From an uncultured virus (IMG/VR IMGVR_UViG_3300027608_000025) (lineage: Duplodnaviria > Heunggongvirae > Uroviricota > Caudoviricetes), in IMG/VR virus record IMGVR_UViG_3300027608_000025: a stretch of DNA of 64,000 nucleotides. One strand, given 5' to 3'. Positions within the stretch are counted from its first letter, which is position 1, and the number at the start of each line of letters is the position of its first letter. A program made the position numbers and the translations under genes. The notes beneath the pieces were generated by a model. That model was not told the origin of the DNA and did no database searches. It saw only the letters and a list, made by a program, of their open reading frames with translations. Positions 3,114 through 37,500 of the stretch are shown here, piece by piece.

Positions 3114-3968
3114 ATGACAGTGCCCAAGATCAAGTACTTGACCAACAAAGACCTACTCAAAGAAATACACCTCAGCAAAAACACCTATTGCAGTTATACT
3201 AAACCAGAATACGGATTCTATGATCTCATAGTGCCTAACCTAGCTAAAATCAACATAAGAACCATAGCAGAAGCCAAACGAAACTGCGCTGCAAGGCTCA
3301 GCAAACAGGCGCACGAAGCAGCGGTTATATCCGGGGGTAAAAAACTGCCTGCTAAAGAATTTGAAGTAGATTACAAAAAAATGCGCAAGGAAGATCTCAT
3401 ATTCCGCGTGATGACTTTTGAACACATACCATTGGCTCCGGGTCGCAAAAAAACACTGAAGAACACCGCAGACAGCCACGACAAAGTTAATTTTCCTCCA
3501 TTCCAACATTGGAAGTTCGATGACAAAGGCAACATCAGTTGTGTGGGCAAGAGCCATTGGAAAGGTGATCTCGAGCGTGGAGAATTCTCTAAAGATCACG
3601 GACAAATGACCAACGATCTAGCTCGCATGTTTATCAAGCTCTGTGAAAGATATGCTACTAGAGGCAATGTCCGTGGCTATACCTACAATGACGAAATGCG
3701 TGGGCAGGCCATCTTACAATTAACACAGATAGGACTTCAATTCGATGAATCCAAATCCGATAATCCTTTTGCTTATTATACCGCTGCTGTTACTAACTCA
3801 TTCGTGCGCATCATCAATATCGAAAAACGAAACCAAAACATCCGAGATGATATCCTGGAGATGAACGGCATGAACCCATCATGGACCAGACAGAACGCAG
3901 GCGGCAGTGTGCCTGGTCCTGCTATAGTCACTACCACTGTGGATAACACAGGCAGTGATTGGGATTGA
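3114..3968 (+). CDS. gp55: Late-transcription sigma factor, T4 gp55-like
   Basis: N-terminal YLTNKDLL; C-terminal RGYTYNDEM...QFDESKSDNPFAYYT....NSF.RII..EK. Lies next to gp47/gp46 as in T4-like phages. Confidence 0.8.
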   Translation: MTVPKIKYLTNKDLLKEIHLSKNTYCSYTKPEYGFYDLIVPNLAKINIRTIAEAKRNCAARLSKQAHEAAVISGGKKLPAKEFEVDYKKMRKEDLIFRVMTFEHIPLAPGRKKTLKNTADSHDKVNFPPFQHWKFDDKGNISCVGKSHWKGDLERGEFSKDHGQMTNDLARMFIKLCERYATRGNVRGYTYNDEMRGQAILQLTQIGLQFDESKSDNPFAYYTAAVTNSFVRIINIEKRNQNIRDDILEMNGMNPSWTRQNAGGSVPGPAIVTTTVDNTGSDWD

Positions 3969-3993
3969 TCTTTCATCATAAAGGCGGTATAAT
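3965..3993 (+). promoter_or_regulatory. Sigma70-type promoter TTGATC-17-TATAAT
   Basis: TTGATC 3965-3970, 17-nt spacer, TATAAT 3988-3993. The gp47 ATG follows after 6 nt. Confidence 0.7.
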
Positions 3994-3999
3994 AAGTCT

Positions 4000-5010
4000 A
4001 TGAGTCTATTTAAAAAAGTCGCTTGTTTCACGGACATACACTTTGGTCTCAAGGGTGGTTCAAGAACACACAACACTGACTGCGAACAGTTTGTGGATTG
4101 GTTCTGCGACACTGCTCAGGCCAACGGCTGTGAAACTGCTGTATTCCTCGGAGATTGGCATCACAATCGCAGCACCACTGATGTCAGTACCATGAACTAT
4201 ACTGTGAGCAATCTTGAAAGATTAAATGCTTCGTTTGAAAAGGTATTTTTTATACTAGGCAATCACGATTTGTTCTACAAAGACAAACGTGAAATCAACA
4301 GCATAGAATTCATGAGGCTGTTTCCTAATATCATTGCTATCAAAGATCCACTGACCATGGAAGATGTGACCATACTGCCTTGGCTGGTAGGTGATGAATG
4401 GCGGGACATTCCCAAGATCAAGAGCCGATACATTTTTGGTCATTTCGAATTACCTAGTTTTTACATGAATGCCATGGTGCAGATGCCAGATCACGGACAG
4501 TTGCAGCGCAGTCATTTCCAACATCAGGACTATGTGTTCTCGGGACACTTCCACAAACGTCAGCAGAACAACAACATCGTTTATATAGGTAATGCATTTC
4601 CTCACAACTATGCAGATGCTGGTGATGATGATCGTGGCATGATGATCTTAGAATGGGGCGGAAAACCCGAGTACATAACTTGGCCGGATCAACCGATATA
4701 TAGAACCTACAAGCTGAGTCAGATCATCGACACCCCGGAAAAGCTCTTGCGTCCCAAGATGCACTGTCGCGTGACCATCGATTTACCTATCACCTTTGAA
4801 GAAGCCAACTTCATCAAAGAAAAGTTCATGCCCGAATATGAGCTCAGAGAACTGATGCTGATACCTGAGAAAGTGGAGGTGGATTCAAATGCCACTCCTA
4901 TAGACATCAACTTCGAATCAGTGGATACCATAGTGATGAATCAGATCAACAGCATTGACAGCGACAGCTTTGACAAAAGCCTGCTGTTGGAGATATACAA
5001 CGACCTATGA
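4000..5010 (+). CDS. gp47: Recombination endonuclease subunit, Mre11/SbcD-like
   Basis: Metallophosphoesterase motifs DIH, GD, GNHD, GHFH. Confidence 0.92.
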   Translation: MSLFKKVACFTDIHFGLKGGSRTHNTDCEQFVDWFCDTAQANGCETAVFLGDWHHNRSTTDVSTMNYTVSNLERLNASFEKVFFILGNHDLFYKDKREINSIEFMRLFPNIIAIKDPLTMEDVTILPWLVGDEWRDIPKIKSRYIFGHFELPSFYMNAMVQMPDHGQLQRSHFQHQDYVFSGHFHKRQQNNNIVYIGNAFPHNYADAGDDDRGMMILEWGGKPEYITWPDQPIYRTYKLSQIIDTPEKLLRPKMHCRVTIDLPITFEEANFIKEKFMPEYELRELMLIPEKVEVDSNATPIDINFESVDTIVMNQINSIDSDSFDKSLLLEIYNDL

Positions 5011-6785
5011 TCAAGATTAAAAATTTAACTGTGCGTAACTTCATGAGCGTGGGCGCACAGACCCAGGCCATCGACTTTGATCGCGGACAGCTCACACTGG
5101 TCTTAGGTGAAAACTTGGACCTAGGCGGGGATGACTCGGGTGCTAGAAACGGCACAGGCAAGACCACTATCATCAATGGTCTCAGCTACGGCATCTATGG
5201 ACAGGCCTTGACCAATATCAAACGTGATAATCTAATCAATAAGATCAACGGCAAGGGCATGCTGGTCACTGTGACCTTTGATGTAGACGGTGTTGAATAT
5301 CACATCGAACGGGGTCGCAAACCCAACATACTGAAATTCAGTGTCAATGGTGAAGAACAGCAGCTCACAGATCTAGACGAATCGCAAGGCGACAGCAGAG
5401 AAACACAGAAAAGCATCGAAGAACGATTCTGCATGAGCCACGACATGTTCAAGCATCTAGTGGCCTTAAACACCTACACAGAACCGTTCTTGGCACAGAA
5501 GGCAGCAGAACAACGTGCTATCATCGAACAGTTGTTAGGTATCACACTGTTAAGTGAAAAAGCAGATGCTCTCAAGGAACAGATCAAGCTGACCAAAGAC
5601 AGTATCAGCACTGAAACTACTCGTGTAGAAACTGTTAAAGCCAGCAACGAGCGCATACAGCAGAGCATTACTGCCCTAGAGCGTAAGCAGAACATGTGGG
5701 AAGAAGCCAAGGAAAAAAATCTCGAAAATATTCTCAAGAGCATCGATCATCTAAGTCACATCGACATCGAACAAGAAGTAGCTGCACACAAGGCTCTGGC
5801 TGTTTATAATCAACTGCGCAAAGACATTAACGAAGTCACTGCTCAATTAAATCGAGCTAGGCTAGATCAGAGCAGAGAAGAAAAACTGCGTGATCGATTA
5901 GCAGCAGAAATCTCTACTCTAGAACGGCATCTCTGTCATGCCTGTGGTCAGGAGTTCCACGATGCCAAGCACGAAGAAGTCATGGCAGCTAAACGCAAGG
6001 ATCATGCCGCTGCCTGTGCGGAATATGATCTACAGACTGCGAACATCTCGGCCTATGAATCAGCACTCACAGAATTAGGAGCTCTAGGCGATTGTCCAAC
6101 GGTGCAGTATGATACCTTGGAAGAGGCATTGAATCACAAGAACACATTAACCAGTTTAGAAAAAGATCTCGAGATCAAAGCCGCAGACGAAAATCCCTAT
6201 GACGAGCAGATCATCGAGCTCAAGGCCACTGCGGTGCAGGAGATCGATTGGAACTACATGAATGAACTGGTGCGTGTCAAAGACCATCAGGAGTTTCTGT
6301 ACAAATTGCTGACAAACAAAGATTCTTTCGTGCGCAAACGCATCATTGATCAGAATCTCGCATTCCTCAATCAACGCCTTACCTATTATCTGGACAAGAT
6401 TGGCTTACCGCACACGGTGGAATTCCAAAATGATCTCACTGTGATCATCACCCAGCTGGGGCAGGATCTAGATTTTGACAATCTGAGCCGCGGAGAACGC
6501 AATAGATTAATACTTTCTCTGAGTTGGGCTTTCCGTGATGTATGGGAGAATCTCTATCACAGCATCAATCTCTTGTTCATCGACGAATTAGTAGATTCAG
6601 GCATGGATGCTTCAGGTGTAGAATCCAGTATCGCTGTGCTAAAACGCATGACTCGAGAACGTGACAAGAATGTATTCTTAATTTCGCACAGAGATGATCT
6701 AACCAGTCGTGTGAATCATGTGCTGAAAGTGATCAAAGAAAATGGATTTACAAGTTATTCCAACGATGTGGAGATCATTGAGTGA
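5007..6785 (+). CDS. gp46: Recombination ATPase subunit, Rad50/SbcC-like
   Basis: Walker A NGTGKT, coiled coil with CHAC zinc hook, signature LSRGE, Walker B LLFIDE, H-loop ISH. Confidence 0.93.
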   Translation: MIKIKNLTVRNFMSVGAQTQAIDFDRGQLTLVLGENLDLGGDDSGARNGTGKTTIINGLSYGIYGQALTNIKRDNLINKINGKGMLVTVTFDVDGVEYHIERGRKPNILKFSVNGEEQQLTDLDESQGDSRETQKSIEERFCMSHDMFKHLVALNTYTEPFLAQKAAEQRAIIEQLLGITLLSEKADALKEQIKLTKDSISTETTRVETVKASNERIQQSITALERKQNMWEEAKEKNLENILKSIDHLSHIDIEQEVAAHKALAVYNQLRKDINEVTAQLNRARLDQSREEKLRDRLAAEISTLERHLCHACGQEFHDAKHEEVMAAKRKDHAAACAEYDLQTANISAYESALTELGALGDCPTVQYDTLEEALNHKNTLTSLEKDLEIKAADENPYDEQIIELKATAVQEIDWNYMNELVRVKDHQEFLYKLLTNKDSFVRKRIIDQNLAFLNQRLTYYLDKIGLPHTVEFQNDLTVIITQLGQDLDFDNLSRGERNRLILSLSWAFRDVWENLYHSINLLFIDELVDSGMDASGVESSIAVLKRMTRERDKNVFLISHRDDLTSRVNHVLKVIKENGFTSYSNDVEIIE

Positions 6786-7012
6786 GCACAGACAGTCACG
6801 ATTCAATGATCGCTGCTTTCCAAGAATATTTTAAATGGCAGGATCGTTTTGAGTACAAGAATTCAGACGAAGCAGGCATCAAGGCACGATATTGGCTATC
6901 AGAAATACGCAATTACGCATCAACTAGGCGCATGGAAATACAGGCAAAAAGACTAGAACGCAAAAAATCCAGAAAAGGACAACTAGGCAGGCCCCCGAAA
7001 CTAACTAAATGA
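6782..7012 (+). CDS. Hypothetical small basic protein
   Basis: 76 aa, GTGA overlap with gp46, basic C-terminus. Confidence 0.6.
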   Translation: MSTDSHDSMIAAFQEYFKWQDRFEYKNSDEAGIKARYWLSEIRNYASTRRMEIQAKRLERKKSRKGQLGRPPKLTK

Positions 7013-7447
7013 GTGCAATGGACTTATCAAAATCAACCAGTAGAAGAAATACCTGAAGGCTACATTGGCTTTGTTTATATCATCACGAACCTCAAGACCG
7101 GACAGAAATACATAGGCAAGAAACTTGCTCAATTTAAGAAGACCAAACCCCCACTCAAAGGCAAACGACTTAAAAGAAGATCAGTAGTAGAAAGCGATTG
7201 GCGCGAATATTACGGTTCGTCGGATAGGTTAAACGCAGACGTCCAAGCACAGGGTCCGGAAAACTTCACAAGAGAAATACTTTATCTTTGCAAATCCAAG
7301 GCAGAAATGTCATATCTAGAGGCACGAGAACAGTTTGAACGCAGAGTTTTAGAGTCAGATGACTATTATAATGGCATTATAAACGTCAGAGTTGGCGGTT
7401 CAAACATACTTAGGCAGCGTCTTTTAGAACAATCTCAGGCAAAATAA
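7013..7447 (+). CDS. GIY-YIG family endonuclease (catalytic domain only)
   Basis: GFVY...KYIGKK, YYGSS, LEARE, YYN motifs. 144 aa with no recognisable C-terminal DNA-binding extension. Confidence 0.8.
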   Translation: MQWTYQNQPVEEIPEGYIGFVYIITNLKTGQKYIGKKLAQFKKTKPPLKGKRLKRRSVVESDWREYYGSSDRLNADVQAQGPENFTREILYLCKSKAEMSYLEAREQFERRVLESDDYYNGIINVRVGGSNILRQRLLEQSQAK

Positions 7448-7448
7448 A

Positions 7449-7902
7449 GCGGTTTTAGAGCTCGCGCAGGCTGATTTCTTGCGCCCTTATACCTGGATCA
7501 CGGATCGCAGGGACGGAATTCCATGCCGCAATGGTACTCAGCAACTATCCTTGACCGGACGTTGATCGCGAAGCGCCGCGGTTTTGCTGTTTCAAAAATT
7601 TCAAAGGCCAAAATGAGGGGAGAAAAACCCCACGTGTGTGAGTTTGTTAGCGTAGATTCACACATCGCCGTCATATAAAGACTGAGCTCGAGGTACCGGA
7701 TGACCGCCTCTGTAATGCTCTAACGCTAAGGTGTACTGTGCAACTCGCATAATGCTCTTATCTTTGCCCTGCTCTGGGCAAAGTGTGACTGAACAATCTG
7801 CATAATACTTGAATTGCTTCGCAATATCATTGTAAAAACAATTCTAAGAAGAAGAAAATGCGTTGAGCGATCAGCGAAAACGCAAACGAGCGTAAGCTCG
7901 TT
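7449..7902 (+). ncRNA. Candidate large structured RNA or structured cis element
   Basis: About ten hairpins plus long-range pairings: 7455-7461/7717-7723, 7512-7516/7668-7672, 7539-7544/7584-7589, and loop 7647-7652/7724-7729. No credible ORF. Not assigned to a known family. Confidence 0.6.
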
Positions 7903-7909
7903 ATTCAAA

Positions 7910-7915
7910 TAAATA
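7910..7915 (+). promoter_or_regulatory. Late promoter core TAAATA
   Basis: ATAAATA upstream of ORF 7964. Confidence 0.55.
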
Positions 7916-7963
7916 AACAATAGATCTGAATATTAAAATCAGCAATTATCAGGGACAGCACAT

Positions 7964-9082
7964 ATGAGAATAACAGAAATATTAACTGAATCGCAACTAG
8001 AACAGCTAGATGAAGGACCTATAGGATCAACTCTAGGTGCTGTGGGTCGAGGCATAGGCAAAGCTGTAGGCGGCGTAGCCAAAGGCGTTGGAGCTGTCGC
8101 CGGCGGAGTAGTTGGTGCTGGTAGAGCACTAAAGAAAGGATATCAAACTGGAAAAGCTATTGTAGGAGATGATCCAGATCCCAACGCAGGAGCTCCTGGA
8201 TACACTGCACCAGCATCGGGACGTGCAGCACCTGCAGCAGCCCCACAGGGCAACAACACCTTGAGCACCAGAATTGAACCCACGTTTGCACCTGCAGCGG
8301 CAGCAGCACCTGCAGCGGCACCTGCAGCGGGTGGCGCAGAGCCTCCACCGACCGCACAAGATATTAACGCTGCTGGTCCTAAAGGCACAGCGGCTGCTAA
8401 ACCTCAGACAGGGCAAGCTGCTACAGCGTTAGCGAGAACTGATGCCGTCACAGACAAACAAACTGCAACCAAAGCTGGAGAAACTGTTTATGCACAGATT
8501 AAAGCCAATATTAACAAATTAGATCAATCTGGAAAAAAACGTATTCTCAACTTGATAAACAAAAGTATCCAACAGTCACCAGCAAAACCAACAGCCAAAC
8601 CCGCAGCAGGTGCCGGAGCATTTGGACAGATGGCACAGCAGTTGGCAGGTGGCAAACCTCCAAATACTATGGCTAATGCACCAGTAAGTGCTTCAAATAC
8701 AGCGAAACCTGGCAATCCAAATGCTGCCTTCTCAGACAAACCTTTAGAAGTTCCGGGTAAACGTGCCCGAAGCACTAACCCTAAGGCAAGTGGAACATCA
8801 GCAGGACAGGGTGCGTTTGCTAATGTAGCTCAACAGTTGGCAAAACCCGCAGGCAGAGCGCAAGGTGGCGGCAAGGTGGCGGGTGCGCTGAGTCAAACGG
8901 CTAACGCAGTGAAAAAACGTGCAGCTAGGCTAGCCGGCAGGCAACCAGCCGCAGTCACTGCCAGTCTAGTGCATTACGGTAAGAGTCTAAATGAAGTTCT
9001 AGCTCAGAGATTAGAAATACACAAGCGCAGAATGTTTGAATCTTCATTGTCCAACGGCACCGCCAGCGTATTCGTAAAATGA
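7964..9082 (+). CDS. Ala/Gly/Pro-rich protein, possible internal head protein
   Basis: 372 aa, N-terminus MRITEILTE, internal repeat GAF..(M/V)AQQLA, repeated APAAA units. Confidence 0.6.
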   Translation: MRITEILTESQLEQLDEGPIGSTLGAVGRGIGKAVGGVAKGVGAVAGGVVGAGRALKKGYQTGKAIVGDDPDPNAGAPGYTAPASGRAAPAAAPQGNNTLSTRIEPTFAPAAAAAPAAAPAAGGAEPPPTAQDINAAGPKGTAAAKPQTGQAATALARTDAVTDKQTATKAGETVYAQIKANINKLDQSGKKRILNLINKSIQQSPAKPTAKPAAGAGAFGQMAQQLAGGKPPNTMANAPVSASNTAKPGNPNAAFSDKPLEVPGKRARSTNPKASGTSAGQGAFANVAQQLAKPAGRAQGGGKVAGALSQTANAVKKRAARLAGRQPAAVTASLVHYGKSLNEVLAQRLEIHKRRMFESSLSNGTASVFVK

Positions 9083-9528: not shown

Positions 9529-9740
9529 AAAAACGGCAGTCCTGATTTTTTAGTGGTCTCAAGATTTTCTGCAACAATTTCGCCAATGATTGCTCTCTCT
9601 TCCCAACTCATGTGTATGACTTCAGTGTAACTGAGTCCTCGCATATACCAACACAGTTTCATGCAATCTTTTTTCAGTGCCTTGCCTTCTTTGTCTAGTA
9701 ATTCACTTTCTCGTAAAATCTCTGGCAAGGACAGGGTCAA
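9525..9740 (-). CDS. gp51-like small baseplate/tail assembly protein, probably made as a -1 frameshift extension of the upstream gene
   Basis: CWYMRGLSYTE..MSWEER motif. The only start is TTG without an SD. It lies in the -1 frame of 9737..10588. Confidence 0.65.
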   Translation of the reverse strand: MTLSLPEILRESELLDKEGKALKKDCMKLCWYMRGLSYTEVIHMSWEERAIIGEIVAENLETTKKSGLPFF

Positions 9741-10588
9741 GATTTTACGGCGAAAAAATTTGATTGATCCATAGTGATCGGCAGACTGAATTGCTGATCA
9801 CATTCCCCACAGGTTACGCTCTGGGCTTTGAATTCAATACGTTCTTTCATCTGCACCACATGATCTTGGATGCGTTGGAAAACATCTTTAGAACAGTTGG
9901 CAATAAAATCTTTGATCATGTCTTTGTCTGTGACAGACCCATCCGGAGCATCTATGGATGTGATACAGTCTGCTATGATATCTACAGTGAGCTCGGTGAG
10001 TTTTAAAAAACTAGCACCAAATTTTTCTAATTTTTGTTCATCGCTGAGAGAATCATCATTGATGACCTGGAAGATACGCTGTTGTTCCATGGACTTCAGC
10101 GCAGTTTTAGTAACTTCTTTGTAGGTATAAGGCCTTACATGAACCGTAAGTTGGTCAATAGGAATATCTTTTTCATATACAAATTGATTGAAAACATTAA
10201 ACCAGGCAGTGAGATCCATGTCGTAGCTGTTGTCAGCATTGCAATGGGGACAGTTGGCACCAACTTCCATTTTGTCTCCATATGTGGCTATGCGAATAGC
10301 TATCAAGGCAAAATCTAAATCTATGTTAGGCATAACCCAAGGATTTAGAATAGCAGGAATGCAGCTTTTAATTAATTCTACTGTGCTGGTTCCGTTCAAC
10401 AAAGCATCAGGTGTCTTAAACAACAGTTCATCTTTGGCAGTCATAGCATACACAGGATATTCACCGTTTTCACTGACATCTAGACTACCGGGCGTATAAA
10501 ATTCTCCCTTAGATGGCAGACGCACATAGATTTTTGGCTGCCTGTAAAAGCTGGCTAAAGGATTCTTTTTAGGTTGAGTTTGGTTCAT
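9737..10588 (-). CDS. gp26: Baseplate hub assembly protein, T4 gp26-like
   Basis: LPSKG.FY, MTAKDELL, DLDFALIAIRIATYG, two CxxC motifs (CPHC, CGEC), ending SNFF. Confidence 0.75.
   Translation of the reverse strand: MNQTQPKKNPLASFYRQPKIYVRLPSKGEFYTPGSLDVSENGEYPVYAMTAKDELLFKTPDALLNGTSTVELIKSCIPAILNPWVMPNIDLDFALIAIRIATYGDKMEVGANCPHCNADNSYDMDLTAWFNVFNQFVYEKDIPIDQLTVHVRPYTYKEVTKTALKSMEQQRIFQVINDDSLSDEQKLEKFGASFLKLTELTVDIIADCITSIDAPDGSVTDKDMIKDFIANCSKDVFQRIQDHVVQMKERIEFKAQSVTCGECDQQFSLPITMDQSNFFAVKS
9752..9758 (-). promoter_or_regulatory. Putative -1 ribosomal frameshift heptamer T-TTT-TTC
   Basis: The minus strand reads AAT TTT TTC GCC GTA AAA TCT TGA. The -1 frame reads TTT TTT CGC CGT AAA ATC TTG ACC, continuing into ORF 9525..9740. 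Confidence 0.7.
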
Positions 10589-15187: not shown

Positions 15188-15430
15188 ATGCTTCTAAACG
15201 AATTTTTTTATTTTAACGAAAAAAACAACGACTTTGCCAATGATCGTAGATATGATGCTGGCAGAGATTCATCAGTTGTGAAGAAAAGTGACACTAGAAA
15301 AATACGTTTGACCCTACGGCAGATCAATCAATTGAGACTACAGGCAGAAGCACATCAAGTAGAATCAGAGTCAGAACTGGGATTTATCAGGCAAATGTAT
15401 GCAACCCCAGCAGAAGCACCTGCAGCATAA
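15188..15430 (+). CDS. Small conserved head-region protein
   Basis: Probable start ATG 15188 (MLLNEFF), 4 nt after TAAATA 15178-15183. Contains DTRKIRLTLRQINQLR. Confidence 0.65.
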   Translation: MLLNEFFYFNEKNNDFANDRRYDAGRDSSVVKKSDTRKIRLTLRQINQLRLQAEAHQVESESELGFIRQMYATPAEAPAA

Positions 15431-16046
15431 TCCTGCATTCGTCATAGGCAACGGCACTAGCAGACTGAAATTAAATCATCTCAGTGCAATGGATCGTGGC
15501 ATAGTATATGGCTGTAATGCACAGTACAGAGAATATGCTCCACACTATTTGATAGCGGTGGATGTGAAAATGGTGAACGAAATCATAGGTGCAGGCTATC
15601 ACAAAAAGCATCAGGTCTGGACTAATCCCAACAAAGGTATCAGCACCAAACACAATATCAACTTCTTTTCGCCTCACAAAGGTTGGAGTTCAGGACCCAC
15701 AGCTCTGTGGTTCGCTGCTACACAAGGTCACAAAGATATCTATATATTTGGCTTTGATTATCAAGGCGACAACGGCAAATTCAACAATGTGTATGCCAAC
15801 ACTCACAACTATAAAAAAAGTTCGGACAGCGCCACTTACTATGGCAATTGGCTGAGCCAAACTGAAAAAACCATCAAAGAATTTAGGCACGTGAAATTTT
15901 TTAGAGTGGCAGATCCTGGTGCATTCATACCAGACAAACTAGGCCCAACACTGTCAAACCTTAGTCACATCACCTTTGAGGATTTTGACAGAACGTTTCC
16001 GGGCACTATATATTCCAATCAAATCAATCAAAAAACTACCATTTAA
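15399..16046 (+). CDS. Maf/GT42 sialyltransferase-like nucleotide-binding protein
   Basis: AFVIGNGTS, YGCN, YLIAVD, SSGPTAL, IYIFGFDY motifs. Confidence 0.5.
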   Translation: MQPQQKHLQHNPAFVIGNGTSRLKLNHLSAMDRGIVYGCNAQYREYAPHYLIAVDVKMVNEIIGAGYHKKHQVWTNPNKGISTKHNINFFSPHKGWSSGPTALWFAATQGHKDIYIFGFDYQGDNGKFNNVYANTHNYKKSSDSATYYGNWLSQTEKTIKEFRHVKFFRVADPGAFIPDKLGPTLSNLSHITFEDFDRTFPGTIYSNQINQKTTI

Positions 16047-16109
16047 CCCTAGTTTGTAATCTTAGTGTTAAATAACTTACAGCCTTGACTATATAAAGGA
16101 GAACATAAC

Positions 16110-16934
16110 ATGGCAGACAAACAACTGTTGCAACAGATGCTTGAGCATCTTGTGAACGACGATCAAGCGAAAGCTGAAGAATTATTCCACGAGTACGTGG
16201 TACAACAATCCCGTGAAATCTACGAATCTTTAATTGACAGTGAAATCGCTGAAGAAAAAGATGCAGATGACGAGGATGTAGATGAAGCTGCAAAAGATGA
16301 TGATGCAGAAGACGAAAAAGTAGACGAAGAATTTGAAGACATTGCTATCGAAGCTGATGACGAGGATCCAGATATGATGGGCGGTGACCCTACAGATGAC
16401 CTAGAAGGTGATCTAGAAATGGGCGACGACGACATGGAAGAAAAGTCCGAAGAAGAACTATTCCAAGACCTAGACAGCATTGTTGATGAACTACAGGCTA
16501 AATTTGATGAACTCAAAGGTGGTGATGACATGAGCGACATGGGCGGCGATGACATGGGCGGCATGGACGATAAAATGAAAGATGATTTCGATCTTGAAAC
16601 CGTGCGTGAATACGTGGAAAAAGTTGCTCCTGCAAAAATGGGCGACAACGGTGTCAATAACAAATCAATCGTAGCTGGTAAGAATGACATGGGCGGTACA
16701 ACTGCCAACATTCTCAGCGGCAAAAATGGCACGCCTGGATCAGAAACAGGCGAACTTAAAGGTTCCGGACTGTTGAAAGGCAAGCCCACTGAAGATAATG
16801 CTGGTAACATCAATGTCCCAGGTGCTAAGAACGGGAATGCTTTCTCTAAGAAAGAACCTGGACATGGTGCTGAGAAAGCTGGTTCTAAAGAATCCGCTGA
16901 CAACAAGCAAAGCCTTTTCCGTGGTCGTAGATAA
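16110..16934 (+). CDS. Acidic prohead core protein (gp67/gp68-like position)
   Basis: Very D/E-rich, located between portal and protease, with AGGAG SD and TAAATA at 16069-16074. Confidence 0.6.
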   Translation: MADKQLLQQMLEHLVNDDQAKAEELFHEYVVQQSREIYESLIDSEIAEEKDADDEDVDEAAKDDDAEDEKVDEEFEDIAIEADDEDPDMMGGDPTDDLEGDLEMGDDDMEEKSEEELFQDLDSIVDELQAKFDELKGGDDMSDMGGDDMGGMDDKMKDDFDLETVREYVEKVAPAKMGDNGVNNKSIVAGKNDMGGTTANILSGKNGTPGSETGELKGSGLLKGKPTEDNAGNINVPGAKNGNAFSKKEPGHGAEKAGSKESADNKQSLFRGRR

Positions 16935-31480: not shown

Positions 31481-31514
31481 TTTTTATTAATAAATATAGG
31501 ATACGGAGTAGAAA

Positions 31515-34500
31515 ATGGCAGAATTCAAACTAGGTAGAATTAGATTTGTATGGAAAAATGACTGGAACCCTTCCACCGTCTATTACATAGACGATGTGAT
31601 AAGATACGGTGCCCGCACCTATATCTGTGCTGTAGGTCATACCTCCGCAGCGGATTTTAACACAGATCTAGAATACAGTCCTACCAAATGGAATCAAATG
31701 AGCGACGGCCAATCATGGACCGGCGATTGGAATACTTCTACATTCTACAAACTTAATGATGTGGTGAAATATGGCGGATTGTTATATATCTGCAATGACA
31801 GTCACACATCTACAGCCACAACAGCATCAGGTCTAGAAGCTGATCAAGCCAAATGGACATTATATGCCGAAGGATTTGATTGGAAAAATTCTTGGTCAGT
31901 CAGCACACGATACAAGGTAAATGATCTAGTTAGATACGGCGGTTACACTTATGTATGTAATACCTATCATACATCTGCAGCCACAGCCGCATCGGGACTA
32001 GAAGCTGATCAAGCTAAATGGGACAGTTTCAACCAAGGCATAGAATACAAAGGTACCTGGGTCACCGCTACCAGATATAAACTCAATGATGTTATAAAAT
32101 ATGGTGCAGGACTTTGGATCTGTACCACACAGCACACTGCTGATGCCGCATTCTTAACAGACAGCACTGCAGGTCGTTGGGCACAATTTGCAGAAGGTAT
32201 TGAATTTGAAGATACATGGAGTTCTGGAACTCTATACCAACCAGGAGACATAGTTCGATACGGTGGTAATCAATACGTAGCAAAAAATATTCACTCAGCG
32301 ATTGTTCCATCGACAGGCACATCAAATTGGGATTTATACAGCGAAGGATTCAAATTTCAATCAGACTGGAATGATAGTACTTCTTACAAAATCGGTGAAG
32401 TTGTTAGACTTCGCGGATATACCTATCTAGCCACAGCAGACAATACTAATCAAGAGCCACCTAATGTCACATATTGGCAAAGACTTACTTCTGGTATTGC
32501 TTGGCAAGGAGAATGGACTGACGATATAAATTATAAATTAGGCGATGCAGTGAGATTTGGCGCAAATGCCTATATCTGTCTTCTGGCACACAGATCAGAA
32601 GGTGACGATGGATCAACTATAGGACCAGAAGGCGGAGGTGCTGCTAATAGTAGACCAGATCAAGACAGCACAGGTACCTATTGGAGCTTACTAAACATCG
32701 GTTCTGAAACTGATATCTTATCAGTTCGTGGAGATTTAGTTTACTACAGCGGTTCGGGCCCTACAAGATTACCTATCGGACGTGAAGGTCAAGTTCTACG
32801 GTCCGACGGTGTAGACCCAGAATGGGCCACACTAGGCGAAATTGATCACAATTATTTTGTAGCACCACACGGCACAGATCTTCCTGCACCTATACATGGC
32901 AAGACCTGGGATAAGCCATGGAAGACTATTCGATATGCCTGTGAACAGGTAGAACGTGGCCCTAGAAATCCCGATGCCACATATCTATTAGAACTTAATC
33001 GTGTGTTCATACAACGAGAAACCACAGAATTCATACAGAATCAGATCACTAACAACATAGCACCGTTCACATCGGCATTTGTCTACGACGATTTCAAATG
33101 TGAAAGAGATGTGGGATTTGTTGTAGATGCATTGATCTATGATCTTAGACATGGCGGCAACGTCAAAACTAGAGGAGCAGCTAATGCTCTCATAGGTGGA
33201 CTCAGCGCAGAAGAAACAGAAGCATATCCTGGTCTAGCTGCAGAATCAGACGAATCCATAGCGGCCTATAATTACATGGTCACTGTAGTCGAGGATGTAC
33301 TAGCACAGACAGCTCCAGCAGTGAACTATCAGACCTTGAACGGTGACAATTCAACTGCCACAGTATCGCAGTATTTCAATGCTGACCTCACAGCAGAACC
33401 AGGAGCATATACCACAGCAGCTGGTTTAGTTGAAGTAATCACTGATGCTATCACTGCCCGTGCAGCAGCAGTAACCGCTCCACAGATCGCAGCAGCATTG
33501 GCCAGTGTGCCTGCTCGTAGAAGTCCTAACAATCTTATCAGCATTGCTACTGGGCAATACAGAGAAACGTTGCCTATCATTGTTCCAGAACAGACCTGCG
33601 TGATTGGAGACGAATTAAGATCCACAAACGCTGGTCCTGCTGGTAGCTTGACGAATCTTGCAGATTCTTACTATTCTATGGGTGCGCTGTCAAGACTAGA
33701 AACAGTAGTCAGTCAAATTATCACTGGCTCTAACGTCACAGAAAGCTCAGGAAACACTGCTACACAGAGTGCAGCATTTCCGTATGCCAGCGCAGATGAA
33801 CAGGCAGATATCACACAGCTGGTAAGAGTAATACAGCATCAGATCGATTATCGAATCAGCACCACTCACATGGTTACCAACACAGATCCTACAGGTTACG
33901 ATACTGCTTATCTCACAGGCTACGGTGATGCTAGAACACTGATAAAAGAAAACAAAGAATTTATCAAAGCTGAAATCATCGCCTTTATCACTGAAAACTA
34001 CCCTTCAGTGAAATATTCTAGAACCATATGCAAACGAGACACAGGTTTTATTGTCGATGCTATGGTCTATGACTTGACCTATGGCGGTTTTACGCAGACA
34101 CTGAATGCAGGATTAGCCTATTTTGACGGCACCACAGGGCTGGAAATTGACGCATCAGAAGTCACTGCTACTGTGGCTGCTTATGGTAGATTAAAAACTG
34201 TGATGCAAGAAATCGCTGCTAACACCACAGTGACCAAATCCACAGGTAATGCTGCTACACAATGGACCGATGCGACTAATCTCACAGGTGGGTCTGCAGC
34301 CAGCGCATTCATCGGCGCTAACATTGACAACATCACTAACCTATTAGCAGGCGATTCCACCGCAGCTACTCCTCCTATCGTTACAGTGACTTCGATAACT
34401 GGCACAGACACCTTTGTTACTGCTGGTCACAGTCTACAAGCAGGCGACCTAGTGGTTCCTATTGAAACACAGAACGGACTCACTGTAGGCACACGTTATT

Positions 34501-37500
34501 ACGTAATTGCATCAGGACTTACAGCTACTGATTTCAAGGTATCAACAAGTTATGCGGGTGCAGCAGCCACAGGATTTACTAACGGTTCTGGTTTAACCTT
34601 GGTAATGACCTACGAGGATCGTCCGATTGCCACCAACGCTGTAACTTCTACCACAGCACTAATTACTGCATTTACAACTCTAAGTGCGGCGGCTCAGACT
34701 ATTGTATCAAACATGACAGTTTATATTGATGCAAACTTTCCATCATTAACCTATGATCCTAATAAGTGTGAAAGAGATGCTAGAATTATCTTAGATGCAG
34801 TAGGCTATGACTTCATGTTTAACGCCAACGGACAAACTAGAAATGCAGCTTACGCTTATCTAAGAGCCAGTGCCAGCGATGTTTATAGTCTAGGACAGAA
34901 AGCAGCCACCCGAGCAGCATTTAGTTATGTGAAAACACAAGCCAAGGCCAACGTAGGCGGTGATGCTACTGCACAGGCTCGCATTGAAACACTGATGACT
35001 CTGTTAGATGATATCATTTATGGCGCCACCAACGAAGGTAGTCGCTGTGCTTCTGGTAACAGGATGGTGGATTACGCAGTTCTGCAGTTAGAAAGAAACA
35101 GAGATTATGTTGTTACAGAGATCGATGCGTACATAGACTCAACATATACAACCACAGTAACGAATGCCACAGCGGCCACAGATGTGTTTACCTGCACCAG
35201 CACAGCTTGGATGCAGCGTAATGCAGCAGTGAGATTCTCAGGAACTGTATTTGGCGGTATTAGCACAGGTACAACATATTACATACAGAATGTTGTAAGC
35301 TCAACAACCTTTAAAATCTCAACTACAAGAGATTCAAACACAGCACTAGACATTGCATCTAATGCATCTGGATCTATGACTGTGAGCTTGTATTACAGCA
35401 GTGAAGCATGCCTGCGAGACGTTGGTACATATATTGACGCACTAAAATATGATTTGAAATATCCAGGCAACTACAAATCTCGATATGCCGCTAGATACTA
35501 TGGTAACAGCGTGGTTGGCAGCCTAGAAGAAGACATGTATTATCTACGTGATGGTACAGGTGTTAGAGATCAGACACTGCAGGGACTCACAGGCGATCTT
35601 TTAGCACCTAATGAGTACGGTACATCAAGAGTTTCGGCCGGAGCCTACTGTTCCTTGGATCCAGGTTGGGGTCCAGAAGATTACCGTACCTGGATCAACA
35701 CTCGCTCACCATACGTACAAGGGGTGACCACACTGGGTACAGCCGCCGTGGGACAGAAGATCGACGGCTCGCTGCACAATGGTGGTAATGATTCCATCGT
35801 TTCCAACGACTTCACACAGGTTATATCAGACGGTATTGGTGCTTGGATCACCAACAACGGTCGTGCTGAATTGGTATCAGTGTTCTCATACTATGCGCAC
35901 ATCGGATATCTAGCAGAAAATGGTGGTAGGATCCGTGGCACCAACGGTAACTGTTCATACGGAGATTTTGGAGCTGTGGCAGAAGGATTTGATGCCAGTG
36001 AAACACCTGGCACAGCCGTAGTAGATAATAGACTGCAATTTGAAGCAGTTATTGATCGCATTGTCACAGACGGATCGGCACTGACACAATTTGAATTTAC
36101 CAATGCTGGTATTGATTACACTGAAGTCACATATGTCATTACAGGTGGCGGCACTGGAGGATCAGTTCAGCAGGATGAATTCCGTGATGACGCTGTGTTC
36201 GAAGTACGCATGTTGGATCTAGTTGAAGACAGTACCGACGCTGAAGAAGCTGTAGGTAATTTTGGTGGATTTGGTTATATTACAAATTCCAACACCTGCC
36301 AGGGCGGCACATCAACTTCAGTGACTATTGCTGCCACAGATAGTGAGACCAGCACAGCCTATATAGGTATGAAAATCGTGCTCACAGGCGGTGCAGGTGT
36401 AGGACAGTTTGGTATTATCGACACATATAATTCAGGCACTAAAGTAGCAGGCTTGGTCAAAGAATCCGATGGCACAGCAGGATTTGATCATTTGATAGCA
36501 GGCACAGCAATAGTATCACCAGATGCTTCTAGCACCTATATCATCGAACCAAGAGTAACATTCTCAGCACCCGGCTACACATCCACAGCAGCTACACTGC
36601 CAACCTCAGGCACATGGACCGCTGTCAAATACGGAGAAACCGCAGCGGTATACGCATCAGTCACCGGCACCTACAGTGGTGCCGGTGTTGGTGCTACATT
36701 TACTGTGATACGCAACGGATGGAAATACACACCGTCCTTACAGACCGCTGGTACAGGATATGTGAGATTACAAACCATTACCATACTGGGAACCAGTCTC
36801 GGTGGGTTGAGCACAGCCAACGACCTAGTGATAACCATCACCGCGGTTAATGCTGCAACTGGAGCTATCTTAAACTTTGATCATGCAGGATATGGCATAG
36901 GTGGCAGATATGTAGCTCTAAGAGGTGGCAGCACAGTGGGCGCAACATCTGAAGATGGTATTGCATGGGATACTCGAGCCAGCTTAATGCCGAGTGCGGC
37001 AAACTGGTCAGCTATGACTGCTGGCTTGTTTGATGACGGATCCACAGTGGGCAAAGTCAGCAAATTCGTAGCAGTTGCTGGAACCTCAGCCAACACCACA
37101 GGTGCATATTCAGATGACGGCATTACTTGGTCAGCCGCCAGTATGCAGACATCAGCAACATGGGTAGATGTGGCATTTGGTGGTTTCAGCGCACAGAAAT
37201 TTGTAGCAATAGCCAGCGATGTAACCACTGTGCGGATCAGCAATGATGGTGAAAACTGGGATCAAACTGGCACACTTACCACCACTGGTTTCACAGCTAT
37301 TGCATACGGTAAAAACAGATTCGTAGCCATCAAGAGTGGAACCGCAGTTACAAATTATGCTACCACATCAGGAGTCACGGGCACATGGACTGCAGGCACA
37401 CTGCCAAGTTCATCGAACTGGAACAGTATAGCCTACGGTAATAACAGATTCGTAGCTGTGTCTAACACCAGTGGTACTGTAGCTGCCTACAGTCTAGATG

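What the first reader, a model, noticed from the sequence alone, without database searches (positions are those of the whole stretch)
7013..7902. Catalytic-domain-only GIY-YIG nuclease immediately followed by a ~450-nt compactly structured RNA candidate with a pseudoknot
Seen in sequence: in an otherwise gene-dense genome, a ~510-nt gap starts at the GIY-YIG stop codon. It holds hairpins at 7464-7484, 7492-7511, 7521-7534, 7567-7580, 7617-7631, 7634-7665, 7690-7710, 7762-7783 and 7885-7902 (GUAA tetraloop). Long-range helices are TTAGAGC 7455-7461 with GCTCTAA 7717-7723, GACGG 7512-7516 with CCGTC 7668-7672, and CAGCAA 7539-7544 with TTGCTG 7584-7589. The loop TTAGCG (7647-7652) is complementary to CGCTAA (7724-7729), which directly abuts the closing helix, giving a pseudoknot that could stack coaxially. 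Several stems need G-U pairs in the + orientation, which favours a + strand RNA over a DNA cruciform. Established: GIY-YIG homing endonucleases usually carry an extra DNA-binding module, and I see none in this 144-aa protein. Nuclease-plus-large-RNA pairs (HEARO/omegaRNA with IscB) exist for HNH/RuvC enzymes. Inference: this could be an undescribed RNA-associated, possibly RNA-guided, nuclease or ribozyme beside the gp46/47 recombination genes. Alternatively it is an independent phage ncRNA or a replication-origin element.
Basis: partly seen in the sequence, partly recalled or inferred. Interest (0 to 1): 0.9.

Follow-up and report, generated by a model that had tools for sequence, protein, structure and literature searches.

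The report
Large folded phage RNA beside nuclease
The gene-free stretch after a small DNA-cutting enzyme gene in this uncultured lake phage encodes a real, intricately folded RNA of about 450 bases whose first third is a catalogued orphan RNA, and nothing shows that the RNA guides the enzyme.

Summary
The 516-nt gap (7448-7963) holds a + strand structured RNA, about 7459-7902. Its 5' third (7459-7592) is the known Rfam family Polynucleobacter-1 (RF01718, 98.8 bits against a cut-off of 37). The remaining ~310 nt match no Rfam family. They are conserved in 129 full-length copies from uncultured freshwater T4-like phages, and covariation supports the fold: 94.1% of 2452 cells paired against 78.6% in shuffles, and 45 of 65 pairs with compensatory change. 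The fold includes two pseudoknots. The TTAGAGC/GCTCTAA and GACGG/CCGTC helices do not. The GIY-YIG protein is catalytic-domain-only (Pfam PF19835, phrog_447). It precedes the RNA in 70 of 70 judgeable RNA-anchored loci, all syntenic. Its homologues in 4 of 4 cultured phages examined lack the RNA. Five of five full-length bacterial copies of the RNA lack the nuclease and sit beside a DUF6641 gene; three also have a short tyrosine recombinase. An RNA-guided nuclease is therefore not supported. Two direct repeats vary identically in 91 of 91 sequences, which I cannot explain. This scan has noted the same RNA family before on other genomes. Function remains unknown.

The parts
4000..5010 (+). gp47-like nuclease subunit (context)
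   Evidence: Pfam Metallophos, 6.3e-07. The gp47 name is my inference from T4 gene order (recalled).
5007..6785 (+). gp46-like SMC/SbcC-type ATPase (context)
   Evidence: Pfam AAA_23 1.1e-10 and SMC_N 8.7e-10. Present upstream in most related loci.
6782..7012 (+). 76-aa ORF with a very basic C-terminus
   Evidence: ORF list. No Pfam or PHROG hit. Found in only part of the related loci.
7013..7447 (+). 144-aa catalytic-domain-only GIY-YIG protein
   Evidence: Pfam PF19835, 2.2e-37, residues 3-123. phrog_447, 1.9e-40. 596 or more relatives in viral contigs. Model pLDDT 85.5; best folds are the I-TevI catalytic domain, E 0.37-0.9.
7459..7592 (+). 5' domain = Polynucleobacter-1 RNA (Rfam RF01718): helices P1, P2, P3, P4, P4a, P4b
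   Evidence: cmscan 98.8 bits, cut-off 37, model 1-141 of 141. Helices 80-99% paired in 91 sequences.
7593..7616 (+). A-rich linker of 20-30 nt
   Evidence: Length distribution in 91 sequences.
7617..7631 (+). Hairpin Ha (7617-7620 / 7628-7631)
   Evidence: 93% of 363 cells paired; all 4 pairs show compensatory change.
7633..7667 (+). 13-bp hairpin Hb with the conserved 8-nt loop GUUAGCGU
   Evidence: 92% of 1183 cells paired; 12 of 13 pairs with compensatory change.
7647..7729 (+). Pseudoknot PK1: Hb loop 7647-7653 pairs with 7723-7729
   Evidence: 99% of 637 cells paired. Examples: 7652-7724 GC 70 / AU 21; 7653-7723 UA 73 / GC 18. 6 of 7 pairs compensatory in A2.
7670..7704 (+). Pseudoknot PK2: 7670-7674 pairs with Hd loop 7700-7704
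   Evidence: 7672-7702 UA 46 / CG 45; 7673-7701 GC 49 / AU 36 / GU 6; 7674-7700 UA 69 / GC 15 / AU 3, of 91. First seen in a mutual-information scan.
7684..7720 (+). Helix He (7684-7687 / 7717-7720) enclosing hairpin Hd (7690-7694 / 7706-7710)
   Evidence: He: 93% paired, five pair types at 7684-7720. Hd: 97% paired.
7737..7756 (+). Direct repeat R1 (..CAACUCGCAUAAUG)
   Evidence: Varies identically with R2: 7747 = 7800 and 7748 = 7801 in 91 of 91; 7742 = 7795 and 7741 = 7794 in 85 of 91.
7762..7783 (+). Hairpin Hg
   Evidence: 98.7% paired in A2. 84% in the 91-sequence MAFFT alignment, where its 5' strand is partly misaligned.
7784..7809 (+). Direct repeat R2 (UGUGACUGAACAAUCUGCAUAAUA), the most conserved stretch
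   Evidence: Column conservation 0.86-0.93. Identical covariation with R1.
7813..7825 (+). Hairpin Hh (C-UUC-G apex)
   Evidence: 95% paired; 3 of 4 pairs compensatory.
7859..7884 (+). Hairpin Hi: outer stem, conserved tandem G-A/A-G, inner GC/CG
   Evidence: 6 of 6 outer pairs show compensatory change, but only 78% of cells pair because of a register shift in one subgroup. G-A 81 of 91 and A-G 87 of 91 are conserved.
7885..7902 (+). Terminal hairpin Hj (GUAA loop), terminator-like
   Evidence: 99-100% paired; 4 of 7 pairs compensatory. The U-tract is weak: 29 of 91 have 4 or more U in the next 8 nt, and the window has AUUCAAAU.
7908..7916 (+). AATAAATAA, late-promoter-like motif 56 nt before the next ORF
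   Evidence: An ATAAATA-type motif follows the hairpin in 78 of 91. Four of six [AT]ATAAATA motifs in the window lie 26-56 nt upstream of ORFs. The T4 late consensus TATAAATA is recalled.
7964..9082 (+). Downstream 372-aa Ala/Gly/Pro-rich ORF (not part of the RNA)
   Evidence: No Pfam or PHROG hit. Other genes take this position in related loci.

Best explanation
Window 7459-7902 (+ strand) is a gene for a large structured non-coding RNA of about 445 nt. It is not a partner evolved for the GIY-YIG nuclease.

Anatomy:
- A 5' domain that is a bona fide Polynucleobacter-1 RNA (RF01718).
- A 20-30 nt A-rich linker.
- A core with two pseudoknots. The Hb loop pairs with 7723-7729, and 7670-7674 pairs with the Hd loop; helix He closes the core.
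- A 3' module made of two ~25-nt direct repeats (R1, R2) flanking hairpin Hg, followed by hairpins Hh, Hi and a terminal terminator-like hairpin Hj.
- A late-promoter-like AATAAATAA then starts the next transcription unit.

The fold, strand, conservation and family membership of the 5' domain are shown. The following steps are inferred. The RNA is probably transcribed with the gp47/gp46/GIY-YIG genes; no + strand promoter was found, and contigs from RNA libraries run from the ORF into the RNA. It probably acts in trans as an RNA or RNA-protein scaffold, with R1 and R2 presenting two sites of the same specificity to one common partner (a dimeric protein or a repeated nucleic acid). The nuclease is a conserved neighbour in one phage clade. 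A related large RNA sits in bacterial mobile islands next to DUF6641 and a short tyrosine recombinase.
For: - Rfam: 98.8 bits, full length, the only hit in the window.
- The gap length of about 480-520 nt, with no ORF of 60 aa or more, is kept in related loci.
- 129 full-length copies were found, 101 distinct, giving 91 rows below 95% identity with the window included.
- Structure counts on 38 sequences: 94.1% of 2452 cells paired against 78.6 +/- 0.5 in 500 shuffles (0 of 500 reach it). 45 of 65 pairs show change on both sides. Slid controls give 35-45%.
- Per-helix counts on 91 sequences, including both pseudoknots.
- G-U/U-G cells 604 against A-C/C-A cells 134 favour the + strand.
- The 3' domain is more conserved than the Rfam part.
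- Independence from the nuclease. The GIY-YIG family has 478 phage records. Four of four cultured examples have at most 148 nt downstream and no Rfam hit. blastn of the RNA against 50,697 phage records finds nothing. Full Polynucleobacter-1 copies occur in bacterial genomes without GIY-YIG.
- The bacterial copies carry about 330 nt or more of conserved sequence downstream. It shows a PK1-like pairing and a colinear nhmmer match of the phage 3' module to L325, E 2.2e-4.
- RNA-library contigs span 7426-7714, 7260-7618 and 7426-7623 without differences.
- The downstream gene is exchangeable, and a late-promoter-like motif follows the RNA.
Against: - No transcript ends, strand or abundance could be read. 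The metatranscriptome runs are held as contigs and cover the whole 5-kb stretch in X1 (30 of 30 bins), so a discrete RNA is not shown.
- The terminator's U-tract is weak: 29 of 91 have 4 or more U.
- No covariation links the Polynucleobacter-1 domain to the 3' domain, so they could be two adjacent RNAs. L043 and L054 keep only R1 to Hj, and two bacterial copies (G002a, G006) keep only the 5' domain, which shows the modules are separable.
- My covariance model of the R1-Hg-R2-Hh module found nothing in bacterial loci at E <= 1. Homology of the bacterial extension therefore rests on a weak HMM hit and on motif order seen by eye.
- The trans-acting scaffold role is inference. No partner was identified, and the R1/R2 state does not track the GIY-YIG clade.
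- In 70 of 70 judgeable RNA-anchored phage loci the nuclease gene is directly upstream, so a clade-specific functional tie is not excluded.
Confidence: 0.55

Rival explanations
1. The RNA and the minimal GIY-YIG enzyme form a ribonucleoprotein in which the RNA supplies the missing nucleic-acid recognition, possibly as a guide.
For: - The protein lacks any DNA-binding module.
- The gene directly precedes the RNA in 70 of 70 RNA-anchored loci with enough upstream DNA, with protein identity down to 51%.
- Of 66 GIY-anchored loci with 500 nt or more downstream, 60 carry the full RNA by HMM and L046 and L074 also carry both domains, giving 62.
- RNA-library contigs bridge the ORF and the RNA.
- In bacteria the related RNA also sits beside a catalytic-domain-only enzyme, a 192-218 aa tyrosine recombinase, in 3 of 5 copies.
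- R1 and R2 behave like twin specificity elements.
Against: - All linked loci share the same gp46 synteny, so the linkage may be inherited gene order.
- The same protein family (phrog_447, 478 phage records) exists without the RNA in 4 of 4 cultured phages examined. No phage record matches the RNA.
- The RNA family exists without GIY-YIG in 5 of 5 full-length bacterial copies.
- L043 and L054 keep the nuclease but have lost the Polynucleobacter-1 domain and the core.
- There is no hypervariable segment of 15-20 nt at either end. The only variable stretch (7826-7856) is AU-rich and variable in length.
- The R1/R2 state does not follow the GIY-YIG clade.
Confidence: 0.05
2. A cis-regulatory leader, riboswitch-like, for the downstream gene. 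This follows the 2010 table entry that rated Polynucleobacter-1 as probably cis-regulatory.
For: - The Weinberg 2010 table rates it 'RNA y, cis-reg y, switch ?' (supplement table row).
- The RNA lies upstream of a + strand gene.
- Highly conserved unpaired nucleotides in a pseudoknotted core would suit a ligand pocket.
Against: - The RNA ends in a conserved terminal hairpin about 60 nt before the start codon. An ATAAATA-type promoter-like motif lies between them in 78 of 91.
- The gene that follows differs among loci while the RNA stays the same.
- In bacteria the gene downstream is different again: a short recombinase in 3 of 5 copies and none in the other 2.
- No alternative terminator/antiterminator pairing showed up in the covariation scans.
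Confidence: 0.1
3. A structured 3' untranslated region of the gp47/gp46/GIY-YIG operon that acts only in cis on that mRNA, for stability, processing or control of nuclease expression, with no trans role.
For: - No + strand promoter-like site was found between the ORF and the RNA.
- RNA-library contigs are continuous across the stop codon.
- The position right after the stop codon is constant.
Against: - About 445 nt with two pseudoknots is far more than 3'-end protection needs.
- Bacterial relatives are not downstream of any gene on their strand. DUF6641 is divergent from them.
- Earlier notes of this scan report own promoters for relatives in other phages. These notes are unchecked leads.
Confidence: 0.15
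4. A ribozyme, self-cleaving or otherwise catalytic, whose conserved pseudoknotted core is an active site.
For: - A double-pseudoknot core with near-invariant unpaired stretches: 7668-7671, 7675-7683, 7695-7699 and 7711-7716.
- Association with phages and mobile islands, as for many small ribozymes (recalled).
Against: - No match to any Rfam ribozyme family at E <= 1.
- No evidence of a processing site. Contigs run through the region, and one X3 contig joins 7567 to 7776, which looks like a variant.
Confidence: 0.07
5. Mainly a DNA-level element. R1 and R2 would be twin protein-binding sites or activator-dependent promoters, or part of a replication or recombination site, with the hairpins incidental.
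For: - R1 and R2 change identically rather than complementarily (91 of 91), as expected for two sites read by one protein.
- GTGTGAC lies 11 bp before an NATAAT element. This geometry resembles T4 middle promoters (recalled).
Against: - The flanking helices covary as RNA with a strand bias: G-U cells 604 against A-C cells 134.
- R-like motifs are not enriched elsewhere in the 64 kb: 37 matches against 40.6 expected, and 5 regex hits.
- The promoter scan found no + strand site here.
- The same twin-repeat behaviour appears by eye in bacterial copies inside the RNA.
Confidence: 0.06

Closest known systems
Polynucleobacter-1 RNA motif (Rfam RF01718; Weinberg et al. 2010, PMC2864571; I saw the table entry, and supplement passages with the seed alignment)
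   Same: Window 7459-7592 matches the full model at 98.8 bits with the same helices and the same conserved GGGAYGGAA and ACUAYCC strands. The setting is freshwater. It is an orphan of unknown function.
   Different: The catalogued motif is about 135-170 nt and was rated a probable cis-regulator. Here it is only the first third of a conserved RNA of about 445 nt with two further pseudoknots, twin repeats and a terminal hairpin, carried by T4-like phages.
HEARO / omega-RNA with IscB, and TnpB reRNA (RNA-guided nucleases; recalled)
   Same: A large structured RNA with a pseudoknot sits next to a small nuclease gene in a mobile genetic context.
   Different: The enzyme here is GIY-YIG, not HNH/RuvC. 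Protein and RNA occur without each other in other lineages. There is no guide-like hypervariable end, no transposon ends were seen, and there is no Rfam match.
Large ornate bacterial and phage RNAs GOLLD, ROOL and OLE (abstract of PMC12286853 seen in a search listing; the rest recalled)
   Same: Hundreds of nucleotides, many covarying helices and pseudoknots, association with phages and mobile elements, function unknown.
   Different: No sequence or structure match in Rfam. It is smaller. Homo-oligomerisation was not tested.
Free-standing GIY-YIG homing endonucleases of T4 (SegA-G, I-TevI) and T4 endonuclease II (recalled; Pfam PF19835 named)
   Same: GIY-YIG catalytic core. The best, weak, structural neighbours are the I-TevI catalytic domain.
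   Different: No C-terminal DNA-binding domain. The gene is conserved at a fixed position in essentially all related phages, not sporadic like a homing gene. It belongs to phrog_447 / 'T4-like GC 213', which is widely mislabelled 'NAD synthetase'.
Type III toxin-antitoxin systems such as ToxIN (recalled)
   Same: A nuclease gene adjacent to a pseudoknotted RNA that contains direct repeats.
   Different: Only two imperfect repeats, embedded in a large fold. The RNA is downstream of the enzyme. The enzyme is a GIY-YIG DNA-nuclease type, not a ToxN-like RNase. PADLOC hits are to homing endonuclease models only.

Membership tests
Rfam RF01718 Polynucleobacter-1 RNA | Covariance-model score at or above the curated gathering score (37 bits), over the full model | tested here: met
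   98.8 bits, E 4e-20, model 1-141 of 141, window 7459-7592 +.
Rfam RF01718 Polynucleobacter-1 RNA | Model helices kept by compensatory change in relatives | tested here: met
   P1 98%, P2 80%, P3 85%, P4 90% and P4b 89% of cells paired in 91 sequences, with several pair types.
Rfam RF01718 Polynucleobacter-1 RNA | Stand-alone motif of about 135-170 nt (seed alignment lengths) | tested here: not met
   In 129 full-length phage copies it continues into a conserved 3' domain of about 310 nt. Six bacterial copies are also extended.
GIY-YIG nuclease superfamily (Pfam PF19835 SegE_GIY-YIG) | Profile match above the curated cut-off, and conserved core residues | tested here: met
   128.5 bits against a cut-off of 25. 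Invariant in 25 homologues: Y22, Y33, G35, R87, E88, E103, R105, E106 and N120. Which of these are catalytic is recalled, not tested.
Seg / I-TevI-type homing endonuclease | Catalytic domain joined to a C-terminal DNA-binding domain | tested here: not met
   144 aa, with the domain spanning 3-123. Only a lone helix (130-143) follows. phrog_447 profile length is 148.
Seg / I-TevI-type homing endonuclease | Sporadic presence among close relatives (a mobile gene) | tested here: not met
   Present at the same position in 70 of 70 judgeable RNA-anchored loci. It is a widely conserved family in T4-like cyanophages: 478 records, labelled 'T4-LIKE GC: 213'.
RNA-guided nuclease systems (IscB-omegaRNA / TnpB-reRNA kind) | Protein and RNA co-occur across lineages | tested here: not met
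   4 of 4 cultured phages with the protein lack the RNA. 5 of 5 full-length bacterial RNA copies lack the protein.
RNA-guided nuclease systems (IscB-omegaRNA / TnpB-reRNA kind) | A hypervariable guide segment at one end of a conserved scaffold | tested here: not met
   The ends are conserved helices (P1, Hj). The only variable stretch (7826-7856) is internal, AU-rich and of variable length.
RNA-guided nuclease systems (IscB-omegaRNA / TnpB-reRNA kind) | RNA-dependent target cleavage | not testable with these tools
   Needs biochemistry.
Riboswitch / cis-regulatory leader | Directly controls the adjacent downstream gene, with an expression platform overlapping a terminator or ribosome-binding site of that gene | tested here: not met
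   A conserved terminal hairpin and a promoter-like motif lie between the RNA and the next gene (78 of 91). The next gene differs among loci.
Large ornate RNAs in Rfam (GOLLD, ROOL, OLE, HEARO, raiA) | Covariance-model match | tested here: not met
   No hit other than RF01718 at the gathering score in the window, nor at E <= 1 in 7300-8100.

The most novel reading that the evidence does not exclude
The RNA family is a portable specificity module for minimal nucleic-acid enzymes. In phages it would work with the DNA-binding-domain-less GIY-YIG nuclease. In bacterial islands it would work with a catalytic-domain-only tyrosine recombinase of 192-218 aa, perhaps with DUF6641. The twin repeats R1 and R2 always carry the same variable dinucleotides (91 of 91). 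They would read two identical half-sites of a target, a two-guide logic akin to bridge RNAs.
Probability: 0.05. Interest if true: 0.95.

Novelty: new variant of a known kind. Interest (0 to 1): 0.6.

Why it matters
Large RNAs with many covarying helices and pseudoknots and no known job are rare, and past examples turned out to be ribozymes, guide RNAs or self-assembling RNA cages. This work shows that an orphan 135-nt Rfam motif from 2010 is only the front end of an RNA of about 445 nt. That RNA is conserved in well over a hundred uncultured freshwater T4-like phages, and a relative sits in bacterial mobile islands. The report gives a testable secondary structure with two pseudoknots. It also gives an odd, sharply defined clue: two repeats that always mutate together to the same letters. 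For annotation, it corrects the idea that the RNA belongs to the neighbouring nuclease. It also flags that this nuclease family is widely mislabelled 'NAD synthetase'.

Tried and rejected
- **Own genome.** The assembly is not held. The nearest record, G001, lacks this region.
- **Metatranscriptomes.** Four runs were laid. They are contigs only, and the whole 5-kb stretch is covered in X1, so there is no information on ends, strand or level. The depth peak of 82 in bin 7672-7838 of X1 reflects many relatives' contigs piling on the most conserved part, and I do not read it as expression. A contig join 7567>7776 in X3 was not pursued.
- **Folding energy.** z-scores do not separate the strands.
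- **RNAalifold on the raw MAFFT alignment.** It recovered only some helices and proposed a spurious long-range helix of invariant bases.
- **Local hairpin 7668-7684.** Rejected. 7672 covaries with 7702, not with 7680.
- **R1 hairpin 7737-7751.** Only 77% paired and the register shifts among variants, so I left it out.
- **R1/R2 as a genome-wide promoter motif.** Not enriched.
- **A small ORF from the R1 AUG to the R2 UAA (17 codons).** Rejected. By my reading of the alignment (no frame count was made), the Hg loop length varies by 1-2 nt between relatives, which breaks the frame.
- **CsrA-type GGA sites in R1/R2.** Rejected. 52 of 91 sequences carry AG, GC or GA instead of GG.
- **Covariance model.** The second, with Hg and Hh given, found no bacterial match at E <= 1.
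- **Defence systems.** PADLOC gives no hits for DUF6641 or the short recombinase.
- **Protein comparisons.** phmmer against PDB finds no hit for the GIY-YIG protein. Foldseek gives only weak I-TevI matches.
- **Literature.** 'Polynucleobacter-1' and 'RF01718' each occur in one paper only, Weinberg 2010. 'DUF6641' occurs in no paper. For the IMG/VR structured-RNA survey (PMC10690425) I saw main-text passages only, and they do not mention this RNA. Its motifs are 29-151 nt and exclude Rfam overlaps. Four motif strings were absent from the searchable supplements, but files 1, 2 and 4 (which hold the alignments) could not be searched, so short pieces of the 3' domain may be listed there.
Full report
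**What is at the site.** The window is from a T4-like phage.
- 4000-5010 is a Metallophos protein. 5007-6785 is an SMC/AAA_23 protein. From T4 knowledge I read these as the gp47/gp46 pair.
- 9737-10588 (minus strand) is a T4_baseplate protein.
- A 76-aa ORF (6782-7012) and a 144-aa GIY-YIG ORF (7013-7447) follow gp46.
- Then come 516 nt without any ORF of 60 aa or more, up to the ATG at 7964. This is the only real ORF-free stretch of 250 nt or more in the 64 kb. The window holds no tRNA.

**The known part.** cmscan against Rfam 15 gives a single hit in the whole window. 7459-7592 (+) is Polynucleobacter-1 RNA (RF01718) at 98.8 bits against a gathering score of 37, covering model positions 1-141 of 141. 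Nothing else reaches E <= 1 in 7300-8100. Weinberg et al. 2010 (PMC2864571) list this motif as 'RNA y, cis-reg y, switch ?', from Burkholderiales and fresh water or estuary, with 16 representatives and seed sequences of about 135-170 nt. I saw the table entry and supplement passages.

**The new part.** Relatives of the GIY-YIG protein are abundant in IMG/VR. At least 596 stretches matched, and the best 80 loci were kept. In those loci the order gp46, (small ORF), GIY-YIG, gap is preserved, and the gap is conserved at 70-80% nucleotide identity up to about 7920. Its length is held at about 480-520 nt. Per-column conservation is higher in 7600-7910 than in the Rfam part. The peaks, at 0.86-0.93, lie at 7685-7714, 7745-7754 and 7775-7804.

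Searching IMG/VR with a pattern taken from the 3' part, independently of the protein, gave 120 more loci. Altogether I extracted 129 full-length copies, of which 101 were distinct. With the window added and rows filtered to below 95% identity, 91 rows remained, 57-80% identical to the window.

On these 91 sequences the following helices are kept by compensatory change:
- Ha: 7617-7620 / 7628-7631.
- Hb: 7633-7667, 13 bp.
- Hd: 7690-7694 / 7706-7710.
- He: 7684-7687 / 7717-7720.
- Hg: 7762-7783.
- Hh: 7813-7825.
- Hi: 7859-7864 / 7879-7884, with a conserved tandem G-A/A-G.
- Hj: 7885-7902.
- PK2, a second pseudoknot: 7670-7674 with the Hd loop 7700-7704. For example 7672-7702 is UA 46 / CG 45.

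A formal count on a 38-sequence alignment of 7604-7906 gives 94.1% of 2452 cells paired, against 78.6 +/- 0.5 in 500 shuffles (0 of 500 reach it). It also gives 45 of 65 pairs with change on both sides, and 35-45% paired when partners are slid by 1-3 columns. G-U/U-G cells outnumber A-C/C-A cells 604 to 134, which fixes the + strand. Minimum free energy alone does not fix it (z -3.4 and -2.9).

**What fails.**
- TTAGAGC/GCTCTAA has 63% of cells paired, and its outer pairs are mostly broken. Its 3' strand is used by He.
- GACGG/CCGTC has 78% of cells paired, no compensatory change, and 32 of 91 sequences broken at the centre. Its 3' strand is used by PK2.

I found no covariation between the Polynucleobacter-1 domain and the 3' domain. 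That they form one RNA is therefore an inference from four observations: the constant linker of 20-30 nt, the absence of a convincing terminator between them, their constant co-occurrence, and RNA-library contigs that span the junction.

**Ends.** Hj is a perfectly conserved hairpin, but its U-tract is weak. 29 of 91 sequences have 4 or more U in the next 8 nt, and the window has AUUCAAAU. An ATAAATA-type motif follows in 78 of 91. In the window, four of six such motifs lie 26-56 nt upstream of ORFs. This resembles the T4 late promoter, whose consensus I recall rather than tested. The gene after the RNA differs among loci, and insertions occur after about 7922. The RNA is therefore not a leader of a particular downstream gene. 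No + strand promoter-like site was found upstream of the RNA.

**Expression.** 20 of the 24 runs listed hold part of the stretch, 16 of them on record as RNA, from 12 studies in all. In the four runs laid, contigs cover 7426-7714, 7260-7618 and 7426-7623 without differences, bridging the stop codon and the domain junction. X1 covers all 30 bins of the 5-kb stretch, however, and contigs cannot show ends, strand or level. A discrete transcript is not shown.

**Linkage to the nuclease.**
- Of the 80 RNA-anchored loci that had flanks, three were chance pattern hits and seven were cut before the gene's position. The other 70 all carry a GIY-YIG gene directly upstream, at 51-94% identity.
- Of the 80 protein-anchored loci, 14 are cut by the contig end. 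Of the remaining 66, 60 have the full RNA by HMM. L046 and L074 also have both domains. L065 and L079 are divergent and have no Rfam hit. L043 and L054 carry an unknown 86-92 aa ORF plus about 320 nt in place of the Polynucleobacter-1 domain and the core, and keep only R1 to Hj.
- All these loci share the gp46 synteny, so the linkage may simply be inherited gene order.
- Outside the clade the two separate. The protein family (phrog_447, mislabelled 'NAD synthetase'; 'T4-LIKE GC: 213' in P-HM1) occurs in 478 phage records. In Melnitz-3 (63% identity), ACP17, P-HM1 and phiN3 the next gene follows within 148 nt or less, with no Rfam hit. blastn of the RNA finds nothing in 50,697 phage records.

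**Bacterial relatives.** Full-length Polynucleobacter-1 copies (69-99 bits) occur in a Limnohabitans isolate and in several MAGs.
- They are rare. Only 1 of 151 genomes sampled from that isolate's family has one.
- None has a GIY-YIG gene nearby, and no DUF6641 or recombinase homologue occurs in the phage loci.
- Five of five full-length copies have a DUF6641 gene divergent at the RNA's 5' side. Three of five have a 192-218 aa Phage_integrase-only gene just downstream.
- Six copies share about 330 nt or more of conserved sequence after the motif. RNAalifold pairs a hairpin-loop GGCACUU with a downstream AAGUGCU, as in PK1. nhmmer aligns the phage 3' module colinearly to L325, covering the Hg 3' strand with R2, the A-rich stretch, Hi with GAG.G..CGAAA, and the terminal hairpin, at E 2.2e-4.
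- My covariance model of the R1-Hg-R2-Hh module found nothing at E <= 1, so homology of the extension is probable, not proven.
- Two bacterial copies (G002a, G006) break off about 60 nt after the motif.

**The unexplained clue.** R1 (about 7737-7756) and R2 (about 7784-7809) are ~25-nt direct repeats, each following the 3' strand of a helix. Their variable positions are always the same in both. 7747 = 7800 and 7748 = 7801 in 91 of 91 sequences, with states GG 39, AG 36, GC 13 and GA 3. 7742 = 7795 and 7741 = 7794 in 85 of 91. On a tree built without these columns the dinucleotide needs at least 22 changes. The repeats are only 53 nt apart, so recombination could inflate that number. No complementary partner was found in the RNA. 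The state does not follow the GIY-YIG clade, and the motif is not enriched elsewhere in the window. By eye the bacterial copies show the same behaviour: GAACUC-AUCGAA with GAAUCU-AUCGAA, and ..AGCAAA with ..UGCAAA. I read this as two sites read by one common partner. Gene conversion between the repeats is the dull alternative.

**The protein.** The protein's core residues are invariant in 25 homologues. The model (pLDDT 85.5) is a GIY-YIG core plus one C-terminal helix. Its only recognisable structural neighbours are the I-TevI catalytic domain, weakly (E 0.37-0.9). phmmer finds no PDB relative. Because it is fixed in position and widespread, it does not behave like a mobile homing gene.

**Verdict.** The RNA is real and large. 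It is partly catalogued: the 5' third is RF01718 and the 3' two-thirds are not in Rfam. I found no paper that describes the extension; supplement files 1, 2 and 4 of PMC10690425 could not be searched. The RNA-guided-nuclease reading is not supported. Earlier notes of this scan describe the same family on at least ten other genomes, including 'swappable nuclease' and 'bacterial island beside a small recombinase' readings that agree with what I found independently.

Noticed in passing
L332:5392-7450; L333:5367-7913 and 15216-16463; L334:5192-6867; L335:5414-7625: In bacterial genomes the related large RNA sits in a recurring cassette. A DUF6641 gene lies divergent about 200 nt upstream in 5 of 5 full-length copies. 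A catalytic-domain-only tyrosine recombinase of 192-218 aa lies just downstream on the same strand in 3 of 5. No PADLOC hit, and no paper mentions DUF6641.
   Followed up: partly
L333 (G004 contig 15), RNA 5' ends at locus 6902 and 15783; L334 (G002 contig 28): One MAG carries two copies 9 kb apart on the same strand. One of them is nearly identical to a copy in a Limnohabitans isolate, although only 1 of 151 genomes of that family has the RNA. This patchy pattern suggests a mobile element.
   Followed up: partly
L327 (G002 contig 4) and L329 (G006), about 60 nt after the Polynucleobacter-1 motif: Two bacterial copies match the full-length ones up to about 60 nt past the motif and then diverge completely, as at a rearrangement or integration junction. 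L264/L329 also carries an ALIL pseudoknot (RF01497, an IS3-type frameshift element) about 900 nt away.
   Followed up: no
L043:3436-4100 and L054:3406-4050: Two phage loci replace the Polynucleobacter-1 domain and the pseudoknot core with an 86-92 aa ORF of no known family plus about 320 nt. They keep R1 through the terminal hairpin, so the 3' module can persist alone.
   Followed up: partly
window 7013-7447 and GenBank phage records (e.g. L321:2441-2857, L323:2480-2902, L324:2420-2905): This short GIY-YIG family (phrog_447; 'T4-LIKE GC: 213') is annotated 'NAD synthetase' in many phage records. The Pfam and fold evidence says GIY-YIG nuclease.
   Followed up: partly
window 7964-9082: The gene after the RNA encodes a 372-aa Ala/Gly/Pro-rich low-complexity protein with no Pfam or PHROG family. 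Related phages carry other genes in this slot.
   Followed up: no
window 31489-38795: A very long ORF (31515-38795, about 2426 aa) is preceded at 26 nt by AATAAATAT, one of the late-promoter-like motifs counted.
   Followed up: no
window 7567/7776 (run X3): One contig from an RNA library joins 7567 directly to 7776, skipping 208 nt (the 3' end of the Polynucleobacter-1 domain plus the core). It may be a natural deletion variant or an assembly artefact.
   Followed up: no
L078 and L080, about 3445-5050: These loci have about 1.6 kb without an ATG-ORF of 60 aa or more after the GIY-YIG gene. The Polynucleobacter-1 match there scores 119 bits. What fills the extra kilobase was not examined.
   Followed up: no
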